This document shows, in pieces, positions 1,872-57,889 of a DNA stretch of 64,000 bases. Source of the stretch: Eledone cirrhosa (taxonomy: Eukaryota); NCBI GenBank assembly GCA_964016885.1, contig OZ024745.1, forward strand, positions 95,480,001-95,544,000. Reading direction: 5' to 3'. A model generated the notes under the pieces. That model had not been told where the DNA came from. It saw nothing but the letters and a program-made list of their open reading frames with translations, and searched no databases. Made by a program: the position numbers and the translations under genes. Positions within the stretch are counted from its first letter, which is position 1; each line of letters opens with the position of its first letter.

Positions 1872-2060
1872 TATATATATATAGAGAGAGAGAGAGAGGG
1901 AGAGAGACAGACAGAGAGATAAATGGTTCTTTTGTTCTTTATTTATATATCTATATTATATAAGTAAAGACCAAAAGCAATGCTTTTTGAGGGAACTCTT
2001 ACACACAACAGTTACAGATGACAGTGCAAGCAACTTCTATGGACAAGTTAGGCTGTACCA

Positions 2061-4979
2061 GCAATCCTACATTTTATCATGACACCAGCACTTCAACATT
2101 TTATCATGACACCAGCACTTCAACATTTTATCATGACACCAGCACTTCCACATTTTATCAAGACACCAGCACTTCCACATTTTATCAAGACACCAGGAAT
2201 TCTACATTTTATCATAACACCAGCACTTCCACATTTTATCATGACACCAGCACTTCCACAATTTATCATGACACCAGCTCTTCCACATTTTATCAAGACA
2301 CCAGCACTTCCACATTTTATAATGACACCAGCACTTCCACATTTTATCATGACACCAGCACTTCCATATTTTATCATGACACCAGCACTTCCACATTTTA
2401 TCATGACACCAGCACTTCCACATTTTATCATGACACCAGCACTTCCACATTTTATCATGACACCAGCACTTCCACATTTTATCATGACACTAGCACTTCA
2501 ACATTTTATCATGACACCAGCACTTCCACATTTTATCATGACACCAGCACTTCCACATTTTATCATGACACCAGCACTTCAACATTTTATCATGACACCA
2601 GCACTTCCACATTTTATCATGACACCAGCAATTCTACATTTTATCATGACACTAGCACTTCCACATTTTATCATGACACCAGCAATTCTACATTTTATCA
2701 TGACACCAGCACTTCCACATTTTATCATGACACCTGCACTTCCACATTTTATCATGACACCAGCACTTCCACATTTTATCATGACACCAGCACTTCAACA
2801 TTTTATCATGACACCAGCACTTCCACATTTTATCATGACACCAGCACTTCAACATTTTATCATGACACCAGCACTTCCACATTTTATCATGACACCAGCA
2901 ATTCTACATTTTATCATGACACTAGCACTTCCACATTTTATCATGACACCAGCAATTCTACATTTTATCATGACACCAGCACTTCCACATTTTATCATGA
3001 CACCTGCACTTCCACATTTTATCATGTCACCAGCACTTCCACATTTTATCATGACACCAGCACTTCCACATTTTATCATGACACCACCACTTCCACATTT
3101 TATCATGATACCAGCACTTCAACATTTTATCATGACACCAGCACTTCCACATTTTATCATGACACCAGCACTTCAACATTTTATCATGACACCAGCAATT
3201 CTACATTTTATCGTGACACCAGCACTTCCACATTTTATCATGACACCAGAACTTCCACATTTTATCATGACACCAGCAATTCTACATTTCATCATGACAC
3301 CAGCACTTCAACATTTTATCATGACACCAGCACTTCCACATTTTATTATGACACCAGCAATTCAACATTTTATCATGACACCAGCACTTCCACATTTTAT
3401 CATGACACCAGCACTTCCACATTTTATCATGACACCAGCACTTCCACATTTTATCATGACACCAGCAATTCTACATTTTATCATGACACTAGCACTTCAA
3501 CATTTTATCATGACACCAGCACTTCCACATTTTATCATGACACCAGCACTTCCACATTTTATCATGACACCAGCAATTCTACATTTTATCATGACACCAG
3601 CACTTCAACATTTTATCATGACACCAGCACTTCCACATTTTATCATGACACCAGCAATTCTACATTTTATCATGACACTAGCACTTCCACATTTTATCAT
3701 GACACCAGCAATTCTACATTTTATCATGACACCAGCACTTCCACATTTTATCATGACACCTGCACTTCCACATTTTATCATGACACCAGCACTTCCACAT
3801 TTTATCATGACACCAGCACTTCCACATTTTATCATGACACCACCACTTCCACATTTTATCATGATACCAGCACTTCAACATTTTATCATGACACCAGCAC
3901 TTCCACATTTTATCATGACACCAGCACTTCAACATTTTATCATGACACCAGCAATTCTACATTTTATCATGACACCAGCACTTCCACATTTTATCATGAC
4001 ACCAGAACTTCCACATTTTATCATGACACCAGCAATTCTACATTTTATCATGACACCAGCACTTCAACATTTTATCATGACACCAGCACTTCCACATTTT
4101 ATTATGACACCAGCAATTCAACATTTTATCATGACACCAGCACTTCCACACTTTATCATGACACCAGCACTTCAACACTTCATCATGACACAAGCACTTC
4201 AACATTTTATCATGACACCAGCACTTCCACATGTTATCATAACACCAGCACTTCCACATTTTATCATGACACCAACACTTCCACATTTTATCATGACACC
4301 AGCTGTTCCACATTTTATCATGACACCAGCTGTTCCACATTTTATCATGACACCAGCACTTCCACATTTTATCATGACACCAGAACTTCCACATTTTAAC
4401 ATGACACCAGCAATTCTACATTTTATCATGACACCAGCACTTCCACATTTTATCATGACACCAGCACTTCAACATTTTATCATGACACCAGCACTTCCAC
4501 ATTTTATCATGACACCAGCACTTCAACATTTTATCATGTCACCAGCACTTCCACATTTTATCATGATACCAGCACTTCCACATTTTATCATGACACCAGC
4601 ACTTCCACATTTTACCATAACACCAGCACTTCCACATTTTATCATGACACCAGCACTTCAACATTTTATCATGATACCAGCACTTCAACATTTTATCATG
4701 ACACCAGCTCTTCCACATTTTATCATGACACCAGCAATTCTACATTTTATCATGACACCAGCACTTCCACATTTTATCATGACACCAGCACTTCCACATT
4801 TTATCATGACACCAGCACTTCCACATTTTATCATGACACCAGCACTTCCACATTTTATCATGACACCAGCACTTCCACATTTTATCATGACACCAGCACT
4901 TCCACATTTTATCATGAGACCAGCTCTTTCACATTTTATCATGACACCAGCACTTCCACATTTTATCATGAGTGCAGCT
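2061..4979. repeat. 27-bp minisatellite array 1 (about 108 units, consensus ACATTTTATCATGACACCAGCACTTCC)
   Basis: Direct reading; constant 27-bp period with recurring variant units and no spacers. Confidence 0.98.
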
Positions 4980-5057
4980 CTTTTTGAGGGAACTCTTACA
5001 CACAACAGTTACAGATGACAGTGCAAGCAACTTCTATGGACAAGTTAGGCTGTACCA

Positions 5058-7450
5058 GCAATCCTACATTTTATCATGACACCAGCACTTCAACATTTTA
5101 TCATGACACCAGCACTTCCACATTTTATCAAGACACCAGCACTTCCACATTTTATCAAGACACCAGGAATTCTACATTTTATCATAACACCAGCACTTCC
5201 ACATTTTATCATGACACCGGGCACTTCCACAATTTATCATGACACCAGCTCTTCCACATTTTATCAAGACACCAGCACTTCCACATTTTATAATGACACC
5301 AGCACTTCCACATTTTATCATGACACCAGCACTTCCATATTTTATCATGACACCAGCACTTCCACATTTTATCATGACACCAGCACTTCCACATTTTATC
5401 ATGACACCAGCACTTCCACATTTTATCATGACACCAGCACTTCCACATTTTATCATGACACTAGCACTTCAACATTTTATCATGACACCAGCACTTCCAC
5501 ATTTTATCATGACACCAGCACTTCCACATTTTATCATGACACCAGCACTTCAACATTTTATCATGACACCAGCACTTCCACATTTTATCATGACACCAGC
5601 AATTCTACATTTTATCATGACACTAGCACTTCCACATTTTATCATGACACCAGCAATTCTACATTTTATCATGACACCAGCACTTCCACATTTTATCATG
5701 ACACCTGCACTTCCACATTTTATCATGACACCAGCACTTCCACATTTTATCATGACACCAGCACTTCAACATTTTATCATGACACCAGCACTTCCACATT
5801 TTATCATGACACCAGCACTTCAACATTTTATCATGACACCAGCACTTCCACATTTTATCATGACACCAGCAATTCTACATTTTATCATGACACTAGCACT
5901 TCCACATTTTATCATGACACCAGCAATTCTACATTTTATCATGACACCAGCACTTCCACATTTTATCATGACACCTGCACTTCCACATTTTATCATGTCA
6001 CCAGCACTTCCACATTTTATCATGACACCAGCACTTCCACATTTTATCATGACACCACCACTTCCACATTTTATCATGATACCAGCACTTCAACATTTTA
6101 TCATGACACCAGCACTTCCACATTTTATCATGACACCAGCACTTCAACATTTTATCATGACACCAGCAATTCTACATTTTATCGTGACACCAGCACTTCC
6201 ACATTTTATCATGACACCAGAACTTCCACATTTTATCATGACACCAGCAATTCTACATTTCATCATGACACCAGCACTTCAACATTTTATCATGACACCA
6301 GCACTTCCACATTTTATTATGACACCAGCAATTCAACATTTTATCATGACACCAGCACTTCCACATTTTATCATGACACCAGCACTTCCACATTTTATCA
6401 TGACACCAGCACTTCCACATTTTATCATGACACCAGCAATTCTACATTTTATCATGACACTAGCACTTCAACATTTTATCATGACACCAGCACTTCCACA
6501 TTTTATCATGACACCAGCACTTCCACATTTTATCATGACACCAGCAATTCTACATTTTATCATGACACCAGCACTTCCACATTTTATCATGACACCAGCA
6601 CTTCCACATTTTATCATGACACCAGCAATTCTACATTTTATCATGACACTAGCACTTCCACATTTTATCATGACACCAGCACTTCCACATGTTATCATAA
6701 CACCAGCACTTCCACATTTTATCATGACACCAACACTTCCACATTTTATCATGACACCAGCTGTTCCACATTTTATCATGACACCAGCTGTTCCACATTT
6801 TATCATGACACCAGCACTTCCACATTTTATCATGACACCAGAACTTCCACATTTTAACATGACACCAGCAATTCTACATTTTATCATGACACCAGCACTT
6901 CCACATTTTATCATGACACCAGCACTTCAACATTTTATCATGACACCAGCACTTCCACATTTTATCATGACACCAGCACTTCAACATTTTATCATGTCAC
7001 CAGCACTTCCACATTTTATCATGATACCAGCACTTCCACATTTTATCATGACACCAGCACTTCCACATTTTACCATAACACCAGCACTTCCACATTTTAT
7101 CATGACACCAGCACTTCAACATTTTATCATGATACCAGCACTTCAACATTTTATCATGACACCAGCTCTTCCACATTTTATCATGACACCAGCAATTCTA
7201 CATTTTATCATGACACCAGCACTTCCACATTTTATCATGACACCAGCACTTCCACATTTTATCATGACACCAGCACTTCCACATTTTATCATGACACCAG
7301 CACTTCCACATTTTATCATGACACCAGCACTTCCACATTTTATCATGACACCAGCACTTCCACATTTTATCATGAGACCAGCTCTTTCACATTTTATCAT
7401 GACACCAGCACTTCCACATTTTATCATGAGTGCAGCTCTTCCATATTTTA
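5058..7450. repeat. 27-bp minisatellite array 2 (about 88 units), tandem duplicate of array 1 including its flank
   Basis: Same unique flank (CTTTTTGAGGGAACTCTTACAC...) at 1983 and 4980, and the same order of variant units. Confidence 0.97.
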
Positions 7451-9194
7451 TTCTTTTTTCCCAGGACTATGGCCCTCTATACTCTATTCCACTGCCTATA
7501 TTTCCTACAAAAGTCAAGATGGGGCTGCTAAACTTCTCTTTTCTTTTTCCCTTTCATTAAATAATAAAAAAAAAAATCCCTATGATTTAAATTAAGACAA
7601 TCAACTGGGGCAATTATGATTGATTTTATTTTTACCAATAAAATATATCAATTAAGTAGATATCATGAAAATATGTTGCTTATTCATTTTCTAATTCATA
7701 CATTTTAAAGAGTGAAGGAGGATTGTTCAGGGAAATTTGTTGCTGCATAGTAGAGTTCAGGTGACTAATTAAAAACTTTCTCTTGTTATCTTCTTCTCAC
7801 TTATCTATGGCAGTATAATTTGGTTTCTTCTAAAAATATGAGAAAGTATATATTTCATTGTGACAGAATAATGCACTTCACTGTAATTTTTTGATAATTT
7901 TAACTGATAAACATAGATTTTCACCCTCACTGTAAAAAATATGTTGCATGATTACAGCATAGGTTACCACTTCTAAGATATCTCTTTGCACACAGAGAGA
8001 GAGAGAGGGAGATTAAAAAAAAAATTGGGAATCTTTGTTTTCCACAGCAATGCTAAAATTGTAGAAACAAATCAATCTGATCCCACTTTTTCTATATTAT
8101 AGTGTGACCATTTTGGTTTTCAGAATAGTTACACCATATCCCTGCATGTTGTAAATACCAACCTAGTGTTGGCACCAGGAAGGACATTCTAGTTATAAAA
8201 CATTGCTTCCAAAAACCTCACCTAACTGATGCCAGCATAATGATGATACACAAATACACAAACAACTGGCTTCTGTATAGTTTTCGTTGAGCAAATTTGA
8301 CTCATAAGGCATTGGTGAAATTAAAGCTATATTAAAAAAATCCTTTTCCAAGATGCTGTACCATGGGAATAAAACTGAAACCACATGATTGCAAAAAAAA
8401 ACCTTGACACATGGTTGCAAAAAGAACTTGGAAACAGCCAAACCTAGACCTATGTGGAATCATCTAATACATTTTGACATTGAAAGATAGAACTATATAG
8501 TAATCTAAAGAAATTGTGAAGAGAATTTAAGAATATTGTCTGGTTTAAACAAGTATTTTATCTGTAAAATCTTCTAAACTATTTCCTGATGTAGCTTTCT
8601 ATTTTAGTGTTTTAGTTACTTAAGTAGTAGGAGATAGTCAAAGATATATAGATTGAATTGCAGCTTGCCAAGTCAGGGTTAATGTTTCTTGTGCTGTCAC
8701 TAAAACATATGACTATGTGAATGTGACTATGATACTTTTTTAAATTTCTTGTTAGCTCAAGAATATATATATTGGTATTTTACATAGGAAAATCTAACAG
8801 TTGTAAGCACTAATTGGTAACTTTGTTAGCTTTTAGGGATGTTTATACATTCTATAAAACTGCTACACCCAAGAATCAAAACTAATTAGACAATTTGATT
8901 CCTAAATATCTTTGCATCTATTCATGTGGTTGTGTTGACTAGATGACCAAGTAGATAAGTTAATTAGCGACCCCAAGAGTTCTGGGTTTATAAACACAGC
9001 AGATGTAAATATGTGTAAGAATCTTCATTGTACATGTCTCAATTTACCCACTATCTATAATAGATTCTAAAGTTATGAAAATGTTACTTATGACAAACTG
9101 ATGCCTTTTCTTTCATCTATATTAAAATATAGAATTAGTAAAGAATTTAAATATTTCAAGGATTTGAATATATTTACATTTATTTTATATATCC

Positions 9195-18163: not shown

Positions 18164-20900
18164 TCTATACTATAAAGCTGACGGCCGTATGTAAGTAACA
18201 AACTTTCCGCGAAGCGACTGGACCAAACAGCACCATAGATGTAACTTTTTCCAAGTAAGAAAGTGAGGGTATTTTTGTCTACTGAATTTTGTTAAAAGAT
18301 TAAAGACATTATTTAAATATTCATTTCTTTAAAATTTTCAAATGTCAACACTTCCAGTTATATGACATTCCTAACGTCTTCACGAACCAAAGTATCGTCT
18401 TCCTGTTTTCTTTTGGTTGCAACGTTTTTCGAAATATTTACTTCTGCGTTCACAGATTGATTTCTTTAGTTTAAGAAGATTCCATTAAGGGTGAAAGCAG
18501 CGATTCTTTGCTTAAACTTTAATCTGTTATTTTGATATATATATATATATATATATAGTTATATATTTGTGTACAGATATTTTTGCATACATAAAAACAA
18601 AATATAAACAAACGTATTTATTTCACGAAAGCACAGACGGCTTATTGTCATTGTTACTGCTGATATGCCACCCAAAAAGTCCTAGCCTGGCCGCAAGATC
18701 AGATTTTCCAGAAGAAAATATGTTACTAGAGCAACAGAGAGACTAAGCTTCGCGATTACCATCAACAAAGCTCAGGGTCAAACCCTAAAAGTGGCTGGCC
18801 TTCATCTGGGAAAACCATGGTCAATTGTATGTAGGATGCTCTAGGGTGAGCTAAGGAAGAGAGAGAGGAAGGAGAGAAGGAGAAAAGAAACCTATCTGCA
18901 GGTTCATAGCAAGCTTACTGGCGCTTTAGTATGGTATTCAATTCTCATATCGTTTTTGATTGATTCATATGTTTTAAACATTAGATAACGATTGCTGATG
19001 TATATTGTACGACAGAATTAGCTGAAAAATATTTTGAATGAACAAATAAAAGAGATATAAAAGAGAGATGTTGGTTGGTTGGTTCCTTCCCGTATCACAC
19101 GAAAAAAACGAAAAGTGACAATCGGAAAGTATGTACAGGATTGGAATAAGAGTATCTCCAGGAAAGTTTATTGATACTAATTTTATAACACCAAAGAAGA
19201 AGAAAGACATACCACGTATGCTAACCAGCCTGACTGCTATTTCTAGCAGGTTGGGAATGAACCATAAGGGATTCTCTCTGCGAGTTCGTTGTCAGTGATG
19301 ATCGTGTTTCGCGGCCTATATCTCCGATTCCAACGGTGGATTACACACACACACACACACGCACATGCACACACACGAACACTCACACAGGCACACACAC
19401 ACACATATACACACACATATATATATACAAACACACACACATATATATACACAAACACTCATAGCTGAATCAATGGCTGAACTAGAGAAGAAATTCCAAA
19501 CTTGGAAGCATGGCCTAGAATCAAAAGGCCTTAAAATTAACTTGTCTAAGACTAAAAAAAGTTCTAGTATGTAGGAAGGAAAATAGGGCACTGGTCCCCT
19601 CTGGGAAATGGCCATGCTCAGTGTGTAGGAAAGGAGTAGGCAGAAACTCCATTTTATGTCCCAAATGCAAAGTATGGGTGCATAAAAGATGTAGTGGGAT
19701 CACAGGTAAACTAACCAAGAACATAGCTTTTATATGTGGCCGGTGCTCAGGTGCAATAAGTAGTAGCAAGTGCCCACAGGATACTAGCTCATTCCATTGC
19801 ACAGATGGTTCTATAGAAATAGTGCACACCTGGGTGGCAAAATCACCAGTGGTGGTGGGTGCTCTGAAAGTACAGTAGCTCGTGTCAGAACGGGATGGAA
19901 AAAGTTCAGAGAGCTTATACCACTGTTGGCCGCTAAAGGTTTCTCTCTAAAAATGAAAGGCAGACTGTATGATGCCTGCATACAAGCAGCTATGTTACAT
20001 GGCAGTGAGACATGGGAATTGTGTGCAGAGGATCTGCACAGACTGGAGAGGAATGAAGCTTGCATGCTCCGTTGGATGTGTAATAGTAATATACACGAAC
20101 GGCAAAGCATAAACGAACTAAGTGAGAAATTAGGAATAAGAGGGATCAGATGCTGTTTACTCGAGAGAAGACTACGTTGGTATGGTCACGTGATGCGCAT
20201 GAAAGACGACAGCTGCATAAAAAAGTGCAGGGCGATCAAAATAGATGGAAGCTACGGAGTAGGTAGACCCAGAAAAACCTGGGACGATTTGATAAATTCT
20301 GATCTTACACACTTACACCTCTCCAAGACAATGTCACTGGACTGAGATCTTTGGCGCTACACAGTAATCCAGAAGACCTGCCTTGCCTAAGTACAAAGCG
20401 AAACCTACAGTCAGTAGGCACCTCCTAACCACAATACACCCCCATCCCACTACCCTTACCCCCACCCCCATCTACACCTAAAGTTACATTGGTGCCACAA
20501 CATCCAGTCCTAAATAAATGAGGTTGTGTAGGCGTCACGACAAAAAAAACAAAACACACACAGTCCACGCTGTAATGTGGCCATGTAGGTGACACGGTAA
20601 AAACCTCCCAACCCACACTGTAAACGTGGTTGGTGTTAGGAAGGGTATCAAGCCATAGAAAACCCGCCAGACAGTCCTATACGAGCAAGACAACCAATCT
20701 TGCCTCATGTGGGACAATTCCCCTCTAAACCCATGCTAGCGTGGAAGATAGACGTTAAACGATGATGATGATGATGACACACAAACATACACACACACAC
20801 ACACTGTAAACAAGACAATGCATTCAATACAGACGTTTTCTCTTCTGCCAGTCTTCTCTTATCATTTGTTAACCTTGGCAAAGCTGGGTACCTCAGCTAG
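18164..20900 (+). mobile_element. Non-autonomous Helitron relic with nested LINE
   Basis: 5' A|TCTATACTATAAAG; 3' CCTTGGCAAAGCTGGGTACCTCAGCTAG|T (decayed hairpin plus CTAG); internal PIF1-helicase motif RLSFAITINKAQGQTLKVAGLHLGK...HGQLYVGCSRVS at about 18740-18852. Confidence 0.8.
19458..20777 (+). mobile_element. 5'-truncated RTE LINE with PHD-like finger, (GAT)n tail
   Basis: LIAESMAELEKKFQTWKHGLESKGLKINLSKTK, C4HC3 motif, ...RLYDACIQAAMLHGSETW...RRLRWYGHVMR...GRPRKTW; possible TSD ACACAAACA (19449-19457 and 20779-20787). Confidence 0.92.
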
Positions 20901-28135: not shown

Positions 28136-29583
28136 TTAACCCTTTAGCATTTACATTGCATCTGGGAAATGGCCATGCTCAGTGTGTAAGAAAGGAGTAG
28201 GTAGAAATTCCATTTTATGTCCCAAATGCAAACTATGGGTACATAAAAGATGTAGTGGGATCACAAGCAAGCTATCTAAGAATGTAGATTTTATATGTGG
28301 CCGATGCTCAGGTGCAATAAGTAGCAGGTGCCCACAGGATACTAGCTCCTTCTACTGCCCAGATGGTTCTATAGAAATAGTGGACACTTTCCGTTACCTG
28401 GGTGACAAAATCAGCAGTGGTGGAGGGTGCTCTGAAAGTACAGTAGCCAGAATTAGAACGAGATGGAAAAAGTTCAGAGAGCTTATACTGCTGTTGGCCA
28501 CAAAAGGTTTCTCTCTAAAAATGAAAGGCAGATTGTATGATGCTTGTATACGACTGGCAATGTTACATGGCAGTGAGACAAGGCATTGCGTGCAGAGGAC
28601 CTGCGCAGACTGGAAAGGAATGAAGCATGCATGCTCCGTTGGATGTGTAATACACGAACGGCTAAACATAAACGAACTAAGTGAGAAATTAAGAATAAGA
28701 GGGATAAGATGCTGTTTACTTGAGAGAAGATTACGTTGGTAAGGTCACATGATGCACATGAAAGATGACAGCTGTATAAAAAATTGCAGGGCGATCAAAA
28801 TTGATGGAAGTTATGAAGTAGGTAAACCCAGAAAAACCTGGGACGACTTGATAAATTCTTACCTTGCACACTTGCACTTCTCTAAGACAATGTCACTGGA
28901 CCGAGATCTTTGGCGCTGTGCAGTAATACAGAAGACCCGCGTTCCCTACGTGCAAAGTTAACCTACAGTCAGTAGGCCTCTCCAAACCAAACATACTTCC
29001 AAACTCACTACCCCTACTCAACCCTTTCTCTATAAAGTTATGTTGGTACCACAACATCCAGCCCAAACTAATGGGGTTGTGTAGGTGTCATGACAAAAAA
29101 AAAAGAAAAGAGAAAAAAAAAAGGGAGAAAGAAAAAAGAAGGAAGAGAAAAAAAAACAGTCCACGTTGTAATGTAGTCATTTAGGTAACACGGTAAAAAG
29201 CTCCCAGTCCACACTGTAAATGTGGTTGGTGTTAGGAAGGGAATCCAACCGTAGAAAACCAGCCAGAATCAGTCCTATACGAACGAGACATGGTCACCCG
29301 ACCAATCTTACCTCAAATGGGACAATTCCCGTCTAACCCATGCTAGCGTGGAAGATAGACATTAAATGATGATGATGATGATAATGATGATTGCTCTATA
29401 TATACTAGTATATTTTCATGGTAAAAGCTTTATCTCATATAATTATCTCACATAATATCGAATCTATGAGATTTTGATATTATTTATTAAAATAAATATG
29501 AGTGGCCAGTTACAGCCAGTTTGAACAGAAAGAGGTGAGAGAATTCTGGCCGGATATGGCTGGTTTAAATGCTAAAGGGTTAA
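28136..29583 (+). mobile_element. piggyBac-like MITE split by a LINE insertion
   Basis: Left TIR at 28136; the MITE body resumes at 29390 and ends TAAATGCTAAAGGGTTAA. Confidence 0.85.
28160..29389 (+). mobile_element. 5'-truncated RTE LINE with PHD-like finger
   Basis: ORF 28182-28742 (CKKGVGRNSILCPKCKLWVHKRC...FRYLGDKISSGGGC...) plus (GAT)n tail; TSD ATTGC at 28155-28159 and 29390-29394. Confidence 0.92.
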
Positions 29584-39565: not shown

Positions 39566-39655
39566 CTTATTCTCATCGAAGACATTGAAGACAAATGCAG
39601 CGAATTTGCTAGGATCTCCAAATGGGAAAAACTGACGATATATTTTTGTAAATCC
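39566..39655 (-). CDS. NCS1: NCS-1/frequenin homologue, internal coding exon ([30 protein letters not shown])
   Basis: 90-nt exon on the minus strand, acceptor ...ctatttcag, donor gtaag. Translation closely matches human NCS-1 [30 protein letters not shown] (recalled sequence). Phase 0/0. Confidence 0.95.
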
Positions 39656-41524: not shown

Positions 41525-41759
41525 GTGTGTGTGTGTGTGTGTGAAGGCACATGGCTGAGTGGTTAGAGAATTGGATTCACAATCGTGAGGTGATGCGTTA
41601 TGTCCTTGAGCAAGATCCTTTATTTCATGTTGCTCCTTCTACCTGGAGTTGCAACCAATAGATAGTATTAACGATTGGAAAGACCAATGGAAACATTGTT
41701 TCGTCGATCCAATTTGACGAAAATCGATGTTCTGTCGATATATATATATCTATATAATT

Positions 41760-41827
41760 AATTCATTTACCAATGGTTTCTTGAAGAGCTTGACACTTAT
41801 GTCTGTCTTCATTCATCAGAATAAGTT
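41760..41827 (-). ncRNA. Minimal type I hammerhead ribozyme motif, sense to NCS-1 pre-mRNA
   Basis: AACTTATT-CTGATGA-ATGAAGAcaGACAtaagTGTCaagcTCTTCAA-GAAA-CCATTG-GTA-AATGAATT: intact CUGAUGA/GAAA core, near-palindromic stem III (ACCATTGGT), GUA triplet. Confidence 0.7.
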
Positions 41828-42492
41828 TATTATTGAATGGGATATGGGTTTGAAAACAGAGTTTAGGATAAATGAAAGTGAGGCTGAAATAAAATAACGG
41901 GCACAATTTGAGTTGAAAAAATATATAAATATCCAAATCCATAAACATATACACAAATACACGTAATCGATTACGTCTATGTGTACACATAAATGTAAGC
42001 GTGTGCGTGTGTGTGTGAGCATATGTATATCTGTGTATACGTGCATGTATAGGCAGATGTGTGTATGTATGTATACACATGTTTGTATGTGTTTGTGTGG
42101 ATATATATATATACACAGATGTATATAAATGTGTGTGTATGTGTAGATATATATATATATATTTATATATATTTATATGTGTATGTATGGAGAGATGTGT
42201 GTATGTATATTTATACGTCAATATTGAGTACGTGTGTGATTGTGTGCCTGAGTGTGTGCATATGTGAGTGAAAGATCGCACGTATATGTGTGTATTTGCA
42301 ATGTAGACGCACATATACTTATGTGTGAATGTATAAGTTTACATACTATTACGTGTATGCGTGAGTTTGTGTATGTTTATGGATTTGGATATTTATATAT
42401 TTTTCCCCTCAAATTATGCCCGTTATTTTATTTCAGCCTCACTTTCATTTATCCTAAACTCTGTTTTCAAATCCATATCCCATTTAATAATA

Positions 42493-42560
42493 AACTTATT
42501 CTGATGAATAAAGACAGACATAAGTGTCAAACTCTTCAAGAAACCATTAGTAAATGAATT
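42493..42560 (+). ncRNA. Minimal hammerhead motif, inverted copy
   Basis: CTGATGA at 42501-42507, GAAACCATTAGTA at 42540-42552; extra mismatches in stems II and III. Confidence 0.6.
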
Positions 42561-43821
42561 AATTATCTTATGTTGTTTATTACATAACTAAAAAGCTCTG
42601 TAACCTACATAGAGCACTCTCTTTTCCTTTACCTTTCCTACGGAAATACTTCATATATATATATATATATTAGAATCTTCATATTAGTGAAGTAGCTACT
42701 GTAATTCGTTCAGTAGGACAGTTGGACCAAGTACACCTATATGCACTGTTCTCTGATATGAAAATAAGGAAGTGATAAAAAACACTCCGGAGAGCTGGAT
42801 AGCAGAAGGTCTTCAGATAAGACACCTCACTCAAGCAAGTGTTTCAGCCCTTAACTTCTAAGTAATACAGTTAATTTTTTACCAATATAGTCATACCATA
42901 GCAGAATTATATGATAGAATGTCTTTGATTTCATTCCATGGTTAAGATTTGCTATATACATAATCATTTCAACATATAATCAATAATCTTAATACCATAA
43001 CCACATTGGAAAGACAAGCAGAAGTGAAATAGTATTTTCGTCATAGACAGTTGTATGTAACTTTTCTAGAACAGATTCACTTTATGACACAAAGATTACA
43101 ATGATAGGTGACAACTCTTCATGAAAAAAAGTTGAAAAATGTATACAAAGAATATAGCTTTTCAAAAAATGTTATCTCTAAAGACTACAACTTCAGTACA
43201 TTTTATGTGAATCTTACACCATCTTAAGAATGAAACACTTCAGAGCAGTATACAAAAAGAAGGGAATTAGATATCTTAATAAAGAAACAGCCATCTAGAG
43301 ATCAACCTTACTAACAAGGGCACTGACCTCTCCAAGCTGTGTTTTCAAGCTTACAAATATATGCTGAGAGCAGGCTCATACATACACCTGGGCCATTCTT
43401 GCTATTATCAGCCATCTTTCAGAAAATTTATTGGAAGGAATCATTTCTCACTTCACCTTCATCTTCTTCTCCAAGTGGGACTTGAAGAAGTTAATGAGAT
43501 CTTTGCCAAAGAGGAAATTGTCTATCTTTAGTTCTTTTAATCTTGTCTACCATGTAATATTTTCTTTTGTCATAGTCACCAGACAGTATAACTACATACA
43601 TTTCTTAGGAAGGTTCATACTTGATATAATCAAGCTGCTACTTATAACCCCATGAATGAAGAATGGGAACAACAATTTTTAACCTAAGCACAATATCACA
43701 AATTATTTGGGCAGAGTAAAAATCAATTAAAATGAACCCAATGCTTAACTGTTGCATGTTTTATGAAATCCAGAACAATGAAAGGCAAAATTAAGCTCAG
43801 AATGTAAAGAGACATATATAT

Positions 43822-45675
43822 TTACCACCAGGTATGTCAACATACCACCAGATATATCTACATACCCCCAGATGTAACTAACTACCACCAGACATATCTA
43901 CATACCACCAGACATAACAACATACCACTAGATATATCATACTACCAGACATAACAACATAACACTAGATATATCATACTACCAGACATAACAACATACC
44001 ACTAGATATATCATACTACCAGACATAACAACATACCACTAGATATATCATACTACCAGACATAACAACATACCACTAGATATATCATACTACCAGATAT
44101 AACTACATACCACTAGATATATCTACATGCCACCAAATATATCGACAAACCACCACATATATCAACATACCACCAGACATATCTACATACCACCACATAT
44201 ACCTACATACCACCAGATATATCTACATACCACTAGTCATAACAACATACCACCAGATATAACATACTACCAGATATATCTACATACCACCAGATATATC
44301 TACATACCACCAGACATATCTACATACCACTAAATATATACCACCAGATATATCAACATACCACCAGATATACCTACATACCATCAGATATACCTACATA
44401 CCACCAGATATATCTACATACTACCAGATAATAATAATAATAATAATAATAATGAAAATATTGTGTACAGTGCTCAGGTGCACTACAACTCATCAAAAGT
44501 GTATGTATAGTACATAGAGTAATGTACAAACGTCAGAAAAATGAACAATGCATGAGTCATGATATACACATGTGTGCATGTGTATGGAAGGGGGACATCA
44601 GGTGTAGTTTTAAAGGATGCAGTGTCTCGGCAGCTAACAACTGACACAGGCAGTTTGTTTCATGCTTCAGCAACTCTAAGCGTGGAAAAATGTTTCCGAA
44701 AGTCATGGGAGCTGTGCTGTTTTCTGACTTTGTAGGCATGTCCACGTGTGTTAGACACATGGAGATCAAAAAGGTGCTCAGGGTTATTGTTGGCGAGATA
44801 GTTAATCATTTTGTGGGTGTTTACCAAGTCCATTGCCAGACATCGGAGCTTCAATGAATCCATGCCCAGGGAAGCAAGGCGTTCAGGGTATGGTAGGTGT
44901 CTGATGGAGGGTATGTGCTTGGTTGCACGTCTCTGAACAGTTTCCAGGAGGTCAGTGTTCTGAGCAAGATAGGGGTTCCAGACTGATGATGCGAATTCCA
45001 AGTGTAGTCGTACCATAGCTGTATAGAGCTTTAAATAGATGGCTGGAGAGCGGCTACAAAGGTCTTGCTGAGTGATGCCAAGACACCTTCGGCCTTCTTG
45101 ACAATTTTAGACATGTGCTTTGTCCAACACAAATCGTTGCTGACAGCCTTGTCTTCTGGTACCCCAATGGCAATTACTTCATGGGTAGCAGATTCCGTGG
45201 TCTTCTCAGTGTGCCCAGATATGGCAAGAGGTACAGGGAGATTCTTTAGCAAGGCGTTCCAATAAGACCCCTCATTGTGGGGTCCTACCCGAATGCTTGC
45301 TTTTATTCCTGTTACTTCCCTTCTTAAAGCAGAAATCATTTGTTGATATAACTACATACCACCAGATATAACTACATACCATCAGATATATCTACATAAC
45401 AATCAGATATAACATATACCGGATATATCTACATACTACCAGATATAACTACACACCACCAGATATATCTACATACCACCATATATATCTACATACCACC
45501 AGATATAACATACTACCAGATATATCTACAAACCACCAGATATATCTACAAATCACCAGATATAACAACATACCACCAGATATAACAACATACCACCAGA
45601 CATAATTAAATGCTGCCAGAGGTAACTAAATGCTGCCAGACAAAACTAAATACCAACACACATAACTACATATCA
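43822..45675. repeat. About 20-22-bp minisatellite (ACATACCACCAGATATATCT-like) interrupted by CR1
   Basis: Units at 43822-44430 and 45345-45675 flank the CR1 insertion. Confidence 0.9.
44428..45340 (-). mobile_element. CR1-clade LINE 3' part with (TAT)n tail
   Basis: LYTAMVRLHLEFASSVWNPY...LETVQRRATK...YPERL...NTRGH...RVAEA; further fragments at 37165-37218, 48705-48866, 50085-50310, 61508-61777. Confidence 0.9.
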
Positions 45676-46728
45676 CTAGGATTTTTATACACTACATCAC
45701 TGTTTCTGCTACTCAATGTTCTCAATAAGCCACTAAGATACAATTTATATAACTAATACTTTAATTAACTGTATGCTCAATATAAATATATATTTTTAAA
45801 TACTATATCTTATTAGATGTAAATATAACTGAAGCAGAGTAGCAGAATCAGCTAGATTTGTGAAACAGGATCAGAATGTACTTTTCTCAAGATAAACATT
45901 TACAGTCCTTATAATGATAAATTCTGCCCACGAGGCTTATTTCCTGAAATAATACACCATATTCTATCAGGATATTCTATTTAAAGATCACTCAAAGCAT
46001 ATATGGAGTCATAATGTAAAGTAAAGCTGTTACAAATGAGCCTAACTGAGTGAATTAACTTCTTAAAGATAAAGCTGCATGATAGATATATGATCTCTGT
46101 CATTTATGGAAATAATCAATGCAGAGATTCTGTAGATCTTTTGCATATAAATGTTTTATCAACTTGTACAACAAACCTGATAAAAGTTTACTTCATATAA
46201 AATGATAACAATTCTATATTATTTGACATCAAACTACTCAGTTAACCATACAGAATTCAATTGAAGAATGTTTTTTAAAAAAAATCAATTTTACGTCCAT
46301 AATTAAATTTACAATTCATGCAAATGGAATTAGCAAGTTACCTACCCATAAGTAACTTATTGATTTATTTCATGTTCAATATATCAATTCAAGAAAGAAA
46401 TAATAGAATTGTTGCACAAATACTCTTGCTAGCGTGGAAGATGGACGTTAAACGATGATGATGATGATAATGATATATATATTTATTGAGAAAGATATCA
46501 CTAGTATGATGATCAGAAATAGAGAGACAGTCCAGAGTAAGATAAAAGGTTCAGAAAAGTAAAACAAAACCAAATGCATCCAGGCATGGCATGAATTGAT
46601 TATGGAAATCACTGTCAGAGTATATCCTAATTCTGGATATCAGAAATCCTGAATATCAACAAAGCCATTCCATTACCAATGTAATATACCAATGATACTA
46701 TATCAAACATGAAAATAGTATCTCAGCA

Positions 46729-56840: not shown

Positions 56841-57889
56841 CATCATCATCATCATCATCATCAGGTTTAGCGTCCGTGTTCCACGCTTGCATGGGTTTGG
56901 ACGGGGGTTTTCCCACTTGAGGCAAGAGTGGTTGTCTTGCTCGCATAGGACTGTCTGGCGGGTTTTCTACAGTTGGATGCCCTTCCTAACACCAACCACA
57001 TTTACAGTGTGGGGCTGGGAGGTTTTTACCGTGTTGCCTACACGGCCACATTACAGCGTGGACTGTCTGGCGGGTTTTCTACAGCTGGATGCCCTTCCTA
57101 ACACCAACCACATTTACAGTGTGGGGCTGGGAGGTTCTTACCGTGTTGCCTACACGGCCACATTTACAGCGTGGACTGTGTGTTTTTTTGTCGTGACACC
57201 TATACGATCTCATTTGTTTCGGCCTGGATGTTGTGGGACCAACATAACTTTACATTGAAAGGGGCGGTGTGGATGGGGTGGAGGTGGTGGGACGGGGGGG
57301 TGTTTTGATAGAGATGCCTACTGACTGTAGTAGGTTTTTACTTTGTATTTAGGTAAGGCGGGTCTTCTCTATTACTGAGTACCGCCAAAGGTCTCGGTCC
57401 AGTGACATTGTCTTGGAGAGGTGTAAGCGTGTGAGGTCGGAATTTATCAGCTCGTCCCATGTTTTTCTGGGTCTGCCTACTCCGTGGCTACCGTCTATCT
57501 TTATTGCCCTGCACTTTGTTATACAGCTGTCGTCTTTCATGCGCATCACGTGACCGTACCAACGTAGCCTTCTCTCGAGTAAACAACATCTGATCCCTCT
57601 TATTTCTAATTTTTTCCTTAGTTCGTTTATGCTTTGCCGTTCACGTATATTACTATTGCAGATCCAGCGGAGCATGCAAGCTTCGTTCCTCTCTAGTCTG
57701 CGTATATCCTCTGCACACAATGCCCAGGTCTCACTGCCATGCAGCATTGCTGTTCGTATGCAGGCATCGTATAACCTGCCTTTCATTTTTAGGGAAAACC
57801 CTCTAGCGGCTAATAGTGGTATAAGCTCTCTGAACTTTTTCCATCCAGTTCTGACTCTAGCTACTGTACTTTCAGAGCACCCTCCCCAC
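56841..57889 (-). mobile_element. Young 5'-truncated RTE LINE of the PHD-bearing family
   Basis: ORF 57349-57786 (RLYDACIRTAMLHGSETW...GRPRKTW); (GAT)n tail; TSD TAAACA at 56837-56842 and 57890-57895; about 112-bp tandem duplication in the 3' UTR. Confidence 0.92.

What the first reader, a model, noticed from the sequence alone, without database searches (positions are those of the whole stretch)
41754..42566. Divergent pair of canonical-core hammerhead motifs in a 200-bp inverted repeat inside NCS-1
Seen: each arm ends in CTGATGA...GAAAC...GTA with stem I (TTATT/AATGA), stem II (TGAAGA/TCTTCA plus GACA/TGTC) and a very short near-palindromic stem III. The minus copy (41760-41827) is better paired and is sense to the presumed pre-mRNA; position 10.1/11.1 is an A.A mismatch. 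Known: minimal hammerheads of Penelope-like elements have palindromic stem III and are proposed to cleave as dimers. Inference: an inverted pseudo-LTR pair that could cut, or be silenced within, a neuronal pre-mRNA.
Basis: partly seen in the sequence, partly recalled or inferred. Interest (0 to 1): 0.75.

Follow-up and report, generated by a model that had tools for sequence, protein, structure and literature searches.

The report
Hydra-clade Penelope stub in NCS-1 intron
The two hammerhead-ribozyme motifs are real, but they are the ends of two cut-down, back-to-back copies of a common Penelope-type jumping gene sitting in a TA repeat of an NCS-1 intron, and the 200-base hairpin they form is predicted to keep the ribozyme from folding, so the insertion is likely ordinary and inert.

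Summary
Observation confirmed. The arms are 93.8% identical, each ends in a type I hammerhead motif, and the minus copy is sense inside a 30-kb NCS-1 intron. The arms are 3' ends of a Hydra-clade Penelope-like retrotransposon. At least 1,724 related motifs occur in the genome. Related end repeats flank intact 714-aa RT/GIY-YIG frames with every Hydra hallmark. Published Hydra hammerheads have the same 4+1+4 stem III and the same kind of mismatch at 10.1/11.1. Head-to-head pairs are the family norm: 15 of 26 loci of this subfamily, each with one tailed and one tail-less arm, as here. Stems covary between subfamilies, so the fold was selected in the transposon. At this locus there is no sign of host use. 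The plus arm has decayed, a pre-mRNA carries only one sense copy (no cis dimer), and forming the hammerhead costs about 90 kcal/mol against the arm-arm duplex. Cleavage, expression and editing are untested. The scan reached the same reading for several other intronic pairs in this and other genomes.

The parts
41738..41753 (.). Left (TA)n target remnant (boundary with the arm ambiguous by a few T/A)
   Evidence: sequence; family copies end in (TA)n
41754..41967 (-). Short, tail-less, 5'-truncated pseudo-LTR arm; sense to NCS-1 pre-mRNA. It ends ~22 nt short of the usual first end site, as does one arm of L185
41763..41824 (-). Type I hammerhead motif: stem I 41824-41820/41767-41763, core 41819-41813, stem II 41811-41806/41787-41782, GAA 41780-41778, stem III ACCAUUGGU 41777-41769, A17 41768, predicted cut 41768/41767
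41960..41975 (.). Head-to-head junction of the two arms (abrupt, between 41967 and 41968; no shared microhomology seen by eye; short local palindrome)
41968..42653 (+). Long 5'-truncated arm (microsatellite-rich 3' UTR plus pseudo-LTR plus tail) of the same subfamily; antisense to NCS-1
42496..42557 (+). Decayed hammerhead motif (G-to-A at 42510, 42531, 42549); predicted cut position 42552/42553; antisense in the pre-mRNA
42591..42653 (+). Tail (~63-65 nt between the two family end sites); in full elements this sequence is the 5' leader running into the ORF
   Evidence: 90.7% over 118 nt, 42535-42652, to L095 and L129
42654..42670 (.). Right (TA)n target remnant
   Evidence: sequence
39566..39655 (-). 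Next downstream NCS-1 coding exon (host gene context)

Best explanation
The feature is a head-to-head pair of 5'-truncated end copies of a Hydra-clade Penelope-like retrotransposon lying in a (TA)n tract of an NCS-1 intron, and it is likely a passive insertion whose ribozyme is predicted to be zipped shut in the pre-mRNA. Inferred route: the element's GIY-YIG nuclease opened both strands of the TA repeat. Its reverse transcriptase primed from each strand at one of two internal start sites ~63-65 nt apart, which gave one arm with the tail and one without. The two truncated cDNAs were then joined. The hammerhead belongs to the transposon, where it was under structural selection. In NCS-1 RNA the antisense arm is transcribed first and the sense arm is predicted to pair with it as it emerges, so the hammerhead does not fold and has no same-strand partner for a dimer. 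The resulting ~200-bp duplex is a plausible ADAR substrate (inferred, untested).
For: Shown. Family: 1522 candidates, 42 matches from 40 scored; 863+861 exact pattern matches, control 0; 2978+2973 tail matches. Window 42535-42652 is 90.7% identical to the leader of pLTR-ORF-pLTR locus L095 and ~80% to those of intact 714-aa elements. [quoted passage not shown] By eye it resembles Hydra-1_Obim. Orientation of neighbours within 10 kb among 100 listed motifs: 12 divergent, 2 direct, 0 convergent. In the window's own subfamily, 15 of 26 distinct loci are divergent pairs, and all 15 have exactly one tailed arm. 14 of 15 further very short pairs are the same by script, and the 15th has a partly deleted tail by eye. 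Stems I and II differ in sequence between subfamilies yet pair. Predicted: the whole region folds into one long hairpin (-411.8 kcal/mol); enforcing the hammerhead costs 91-93 kcal/mol; 56-60 of the last 60 nt are paired at five growing transcript lengths; the cost stays 88-95 with 30-50% simulated editing outside the motif. Literature: two RT start sites bound the tail and both strands are cut and extended (PMC11167929); inverted 5'-truncated copy plus tail, and (TA)n targeting (PMC8557442); opposite-strand pairs 100-700 bp apart (PMC4209133).
Against: The sense copy keeps an intact core and better stems than the antisense copy, which is what host selection would also give; at the arm's own divergence this has a ~65-70% chance under neutrality. 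Within the subfamily the core is somewhat more conserved than the rest (1.9% vs 4.1% departures, P=0.06, 30 rows, biased sample). No coding frame was tied to the window's exact subfamily: a junction pattern found 0 matches, and the closest ORF-linked ends belong to sister subfamilies. Folding is thermodynamic and ignores proteins, helicases and kinetics. The junction here shows no microhomology, unlike many short pairs. Twin priming is inferred from a Poseidon element tested in vitro, not from a Hydra element.
Confidence: 0.9

Rival explanations
1. Conditional intronic ribozyme: the sense hammerhead cuts NCS-1 pre-mRNA at 41768/41767 when the duplex is opened (helicase, editing, RNA-binding protein) or when it pairs through stem III in trans with a Hydra RNA, tuning NCS-1 output.
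For: Sense orientation, intact core, stem III self-duplex -8.9 kcal/mol. A PLE hammerhead became active when its protein was added (PMC11167929). Intronic ribozymes can affect host mRNA (CPEB3, abstract start only). Intact Hydra ORFs exist in this genome.
Against: ~90 kcal/mol penalty, little changed by simulated editing. Even isolated, the monomer fold has P~0.001. The core holds 6 adenosines that editing would damage. There is no same-strand partner. PLE hammerheads are slow even as dimers (PMC4209133). No locus-specific conservation shown.
Confidence: 0.04
2. The functional product is the hairpin, not the ribozyme: a ~200-bp intronic duplex that recruits ADAR or yields small RNAs and so affects splicing or editing of the NCS-1 exon 2.1 kb downstream.
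For: Near-perfect duplex predicted. An earlier scan note reports ADAR-type marks in Penelope hairpins of this genome (e1-8671701, not checked here). Cephalopod editing is extensive (recalled).
Against: Such pairs are common: 24 of 100 listed motifs are in divergent pairs. The arms have drifted apart like neutral copies. No RNA data.
Confidence: 0.04
3. A MITE or other DNA transposon with 200-bp terminal inverted repeats and a chance hammerhead-like motif.
For: Inverted arms flanked by TA.
Against: The arms are unequal and end at two different fixed sites. 5' ends vary between copies. The same sequence flanks RT/GIY-YIG frames in direct and tandem layout. Stems covary.
Confidence: 0.02

Closest known systems
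Hydra clade of C-terminal EN+ Penelope-like elements (Craig et al. 2021, PMC8557442; Hydra-1_Obim, Penelope-13_HM)
   Same: Protein motifs, (TA)n target, type I hammerhead with 4-bp/1-nt-loop stem III and a mismatch next to the core; Penelope-13_HM is listed with an inverted 5'-truncated copy.
   Different: Different family: two 14-nt core strings of this family have 0 hits in the supplement. The Hydra-1_Obim hammerhead sequence differs. Unit ~4.3 kb with a long microsatellite-rich 3' UTR versus <3 kb. Tail ~63-65 nt versus the 30-40 bp quoted for PLEs. The window's subfamily has a shortened stem II (6 bp versus 9-11 bp in sisters).
Minimal hammerheads of metazoan PLEs (Cervera and de la Pena 2014, PMC4209133)
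   Same: Type I, 5-bp stem I, long stem II, palindromic stem III; solo and opposite-strand pairs 100-700 bp apart already reported.
   Different: Here the conserved G-C pair of stem II sits two bases from the core on both sides (83 of 94 distinct motifs G-C, 6 G-T) rather than after one extra 5' base, and stem III is longer (9 nt).
Poseidon PAc of Anolis (Frangieh et al. 2024, PMC11167929)
   Same: Two end sites bounding a tail downstream of the hammerhead; AT-rich targets; both strands cut and extended.
   Different: Different clade. In PAc the ORF begins inside the hammerhead; here the start codon lies ~200 nt downstream.
Metazoan non-LTR retrozymes; conserved intronic ribozymes (CPEB3 HDV-like, amniote intronic hammerheads)
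   Same: Type I hammerhead in a non-coding repeat; intronic, sense location.
   Different: Not a tandem array. No evidence of orthologous conservation; one of thousands of dispersed copies.

Membership tests
Hydra-clade PLE | Single ORF, RT followed by C-terminal GIY-YIG nuclease | tested here: met
   714-aa frame in L115-L128, read from motifs (YRDD; VVY...YVG). Pfam itself gave no significant hit. One homologue carries PF01541. Tested on sister subfamilies, not on the window copy, which has no ORF.
Hydra-clade PLE | RWK and DKT motifs | tested here: met
   RMRWK and SDKT in P0001; definition
Hydra-clade PLE | CxCx5C linker, no CCHH, CxxC and CxH around the conserved E and N | tested here: met
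   CSCRKPDEC; no Cys between VVY and YVG; CSLC and CPH
Hydra-clade PLE | Insertion in (TA)n | tested here: met
   both flanks in the window; family copies
Hydra-clade PLE | Placement in the RT phylogeny | not tested
   no tree built; resemblance to Hydra-1_Obim judged by eye from the supplement
Hydra-clade PLE | Window subfamily directly linked to its own ORF | tested here: inconclusive
   0 matches for a leader-to-ORF pattern; linkage shown through 90.7% identity of 42535-42652 to L095/L129. A Hydra-like ORF upstream of a sister copy in L109 is 35% identical to P0001 and may be a nested element.
PLE insertion unit | Inverted 5'-truncated copy at the 5' end, tail on one end only | tested here: met
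   window; 15 of 15 pairs; 14 of 15 by script plus 1 by eye
Type I hammerhead ribozyme (PLE type) | Core C3-A9, G12-A14, A15.1-U16.1, H17 with three stems | tested here: met
   minus copy complete, plus copy with weakened stems
Type I hammerhead ribozyme (PLE type) | G10.1-C11.1 pair next to the core | tested here: not met
   A.A here; A.A 49, C.A 19, T-A 16, others 10 of 94 distinct motifs; the G-C pair is the third position. Published Hydra hammerheads show the same offset.
Type I hammerhead ribozyme (PLE type) | Covariation of stems | tested here: met
   at least four stem I and four stem II sequence types that pair; motifs were parsed by their core, so core invariance in that set is by construction; no formal covariation statistic
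Type I hammerhead ribozyme (PLE type) | Self-cleavage as monomer or dimer | not testable with these tools
   needs an in vitro assay
Non-LTR retrozyme | Head-to-tail tandem units each with a hammerhead | tested here: not met
   one inverted pair, no tandem
MITE | Equal terminal inverted repeats with fixed ends | tested here: not met
   asymmetric ends, variable 5' truncation

The most novel reading that the evidence does not exclude
The sense hammerhead is a masked switch: Hydra protein or a trans-pairing Hydra RNA, acting when the transposon is expressed in neurons, unmasks it and cuts NCS-1 pre-mRNA 2.1 kb before the next exon. Thousands of such intronic stubs would then couple transposon activity to host neuronal transcripts.
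Probability: 0.04. Interest if true: 0.75.

Novelty: new member of a known kind. Interest (0 to 1): 0.15.

Why it matters
As a single locus, little: it is one of thousands of Penelope stubs. The family has some use. The strict rule of one tailed plus one tail-less arm, and junctions that often run through the stem-III palindrome (10 of 36 very short pairs, by eye), are a genomic record that fits two-site, two-strand priming, so far shown in vitro for one Poseidon element. Intact young ORFs make the Hydra clade testable biochemically. If the sense copy did cut NCS-1 RNA it would be a transposon-derived switch in a neuronal calcium-sensor gene, but nothing here points to that.

Tried and rejected
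Rfam found nothing at gathering threshold. Pfam and PDB sequence searches did not name the 714-aa protein; an earlier Pfam scan used off-frame exon coordinates for some pieces and was superseded. The protein atlas gave no answer. No RNA holder was listed; three contig runs of one study hold the stretch and may be the assembly's own sample. No reads were laid, so expression, editing and RNA ends remain open. Test for 5' truncations piling up at the predicted cut (a genomic trace of cleaved templates): mismatch-anchored counts were 94 at the cut, 90 one base upstream and 78 one base downstream. Script-called breakpoints were 13, 7 and 16 of 30 loci each, about 10, 3 and 11 after reading by eye. 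There is no peak at the cut; a possible step upstream is confounded by microhomology, so the test is inconclusive and not used. The 36 very short pairs are dominated by microhomology joins, not by cut-site ends. Search for an ORF-linked copy of the window's own subfamily: 0. L002/L003, 5 kb apart, proved a local duplication around a LINE, not pLTR-ORF-pLTR. Neptune/Nematis assignment was considered and rejected on the linker and the missing CCHH. Lunse et al. 2017 (dimer cleavage of PLE hammerheads) was not held and was seen only as cited in a review; it may describe this variant.

Full report
Observation. The inverted repeat is real: 41754-41963 against 42360-42566, 210 columns, 93.8% identity. 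The minus copy is the only hit of a strict scan of the window. Rfam has no match at gathering threshold. The host gene is NCS-1 on the minus strand: four coding exons with canonical splice sites lie at 39655-39566, 24711-24633, 11896-11808 and 9695-9618, two of them searched and best matching NCS-1. The preceding exon lies 5.7 kb beyond the window. The element is thus in a ~30-kb intron, 2.1 kb before the acceptor, and the minus motif is sense.

What it is. The arm is a dispersed repeat in a 3.0-Gb genome: 1522 candidates, 40 scored. A pattern over the motif gives 863+861 exact matches and 0 for the reversed control. A 22-nt tail pattern gives 2978+2973. The plus arm extends from 41968 to about 42653, and both outer ends abut (TA)n. 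Downstream of the motif, copies stop at one of two sites about 63-65 nt apart. In locus L095 the longer end runs on into a broken RT/GIY-YIG frame, with a second motif 4.6 kb later. A search with that frame found intact 713-715-aa copies in tandem and inverted layouts. Window 42535-42652 is 90.7% identical to L095 and L129 and about 80% to the intact elements. The protein has RWK, DKT, a CxCx5C linker, no CCHH, and CxxC/CxH, the definition of the Hydra clade (PMC8557442 section 11). It resembles Hydra-1_Obim by eye (supplement). Pfam and PDB did not name it; 1507 homologues at E<=1e-20 exist, mostly unnamed. No ORF was tied to the window's exact subfamily.

The arrangement is routine. Among 100 listed motifs on one chromosome, neighbours within 10 kb are divergent 12 times, direct twice and never convergent. 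The window's subfamily has 35 exact matches to a 30-mer. Of the 30 fetched, 26 are distinct loci: 15 divergent pairs, 2 with an inverted tail only, 4 with a different 3' extension and 5 solo. All 15 pairs have one tailed and one tail-less arm, like the window. Of 36 very short pairs, 15 were fetched; 14 follow the rule by script and the last has a partly deleted tail. Ten of the 36 are joined through the stem-III palindrome (by eye). This is known in kind: opposite-strand pairs 100-700 bp apart (PMC4209133, parts 1-2 of 4 read); inverted 5'-truncated copies and a one-sided tail (PMC8557442, passages); two RT start sites bounding the tail, with both strands cut and extended (PMC11167929, parts 1-2 of 4).

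The ribozyme motif. Across 94 distinct motifs parsed from fetched loci, stems I and II change sequence between subfamilies yet pair. Position 7 varies. 10.1/11.1 is mostly mismatched (A.A 49, C.A 19, T-A 16). The third pair of stem II is G-C in 83 and G-T in 6. These motifs were parsed by their core, so core invariance there is circular. In a tail-anchored sample of 30 loci, 20 span the motif and 16 keep the core, counted by eye. Published Hydra hammerheads show the same offset and the same 4+1+4 stem III (File S2).

At this locus. Both arms share two changes from the subfamily majority; beyond these the plus arm has four private changes and the minus arm five. Three of the four fall in the plus motif. 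An intact sense core is expected 65-70% of the time under neutral drift. Within the subfamily the core is only marginally more conserved than the rest (1.9% vs 4.1%, P=0.06). The isolated minus motif folds no better than shuffles (z 0.06), and the monomer hammerhead fold has P about 0.001. Its stem III could pair in a dimer (-8.9 kcal/mol), but the pre-mRNA has no second sense copy. The antisense arm is transcribed first. The two arms fold into one long duplex, the newest 60 nt are almost fully paired at five transcript lengths, and forcing the hammerhead costs 91-93 kcal/mol, or 88-95 with simulated editing. These are predictions.

Mechanism. Shown: identity, family, layout, end asymmetry, covariation, intronic sense position. 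Inferred: both-strand priming at two RT start sites and joining of the two cDNAs; masking of the ribozyme; neutrality. Untested: cleavage, expression, editing, orthologues. No RNA holder was listed and no reads were laid. A test for 5' ends at the cut site was inconclusive.

Novelty. This is a new family of a known clade: its core strings are absent from the Craig supplement. Paper searches found no report of a hammerhead in an NCS-1 gene (0 papers; related searches). Lunse et al. 2017 was not available (cited in PMC6765202, passages). Li et al. 2026 was read in part 1 of 5; its bioRxiv supplements were not seen. My Hydra reading was recorded before the first look-up of earlier notes. Those notes reach the same verdict for other intronic pairs, and none matched this sequence; they are not independent evidence. 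Verdict: real, ordinary, interest 0.15.

Noticed in passing
L031, L006, L036, L037, L038, L040, L041, L042, L043, L044 (3' of the family end): Ten loci of the window's subfamily share a ~85-nt 3' extension ending in a long hairpin with a loop that differs in nearly every copy, followed mostly by CTAG. This resembles a Helitron 3' end (recalled). The four such copies have no inverted partner or tail within 1.5 kb, so a rolling-circle element may have captured and spread a hammerhead-bearing PLE end.
   Followed up: partly
36 very short pairs, (e.g. L287, L294, L297, L299): Ten of 36 head-to-head junctions run through the 9-nt stem-III near-palindrome, suggesting it serves as the microhomology that joins the two cDNAs.
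   Followed up: partly
L203, L206: Copies in which a break falls at a stem I strand; in L203 the whole ribozyme between the two stem I strands is missing, as if RT skipped the folded motif.
   Followed up: no
L115-L128: Young Hydra subfamily with many near-identical intact 713-715-aa ORFs in tandem and inverted arrays; possibly recently active.
   Followed up: partly
L110 and L096: Sister subfamily whose motif begins CCGACGA (U4 to C) in two loci, a core variant.
   Followed up: no
subfamily loci: Many arms of the short pairs begin within 42484-42515, just 5' of or within the motif, which could reflect RT stalling or A/T microhomology.
   Followed up: no
window 43724-44450 and 45321-45700: Minisatellite of 17-20-nt units in two blocks, interrupted by a LINE-like RT fragment on the minus strand at 44660-45351.
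   Followed up: no
window 1990-7560: Long array of 18-nt units giving open frames of up to 988 aa, downstream of the last NCS-1 exon located here.
   Followed up: no
window 19519-20345, 28140-28742, 57349-57888: Three RTE-like LINE fragments within NCS-1 introns (family name recalled).
   Followed up: no
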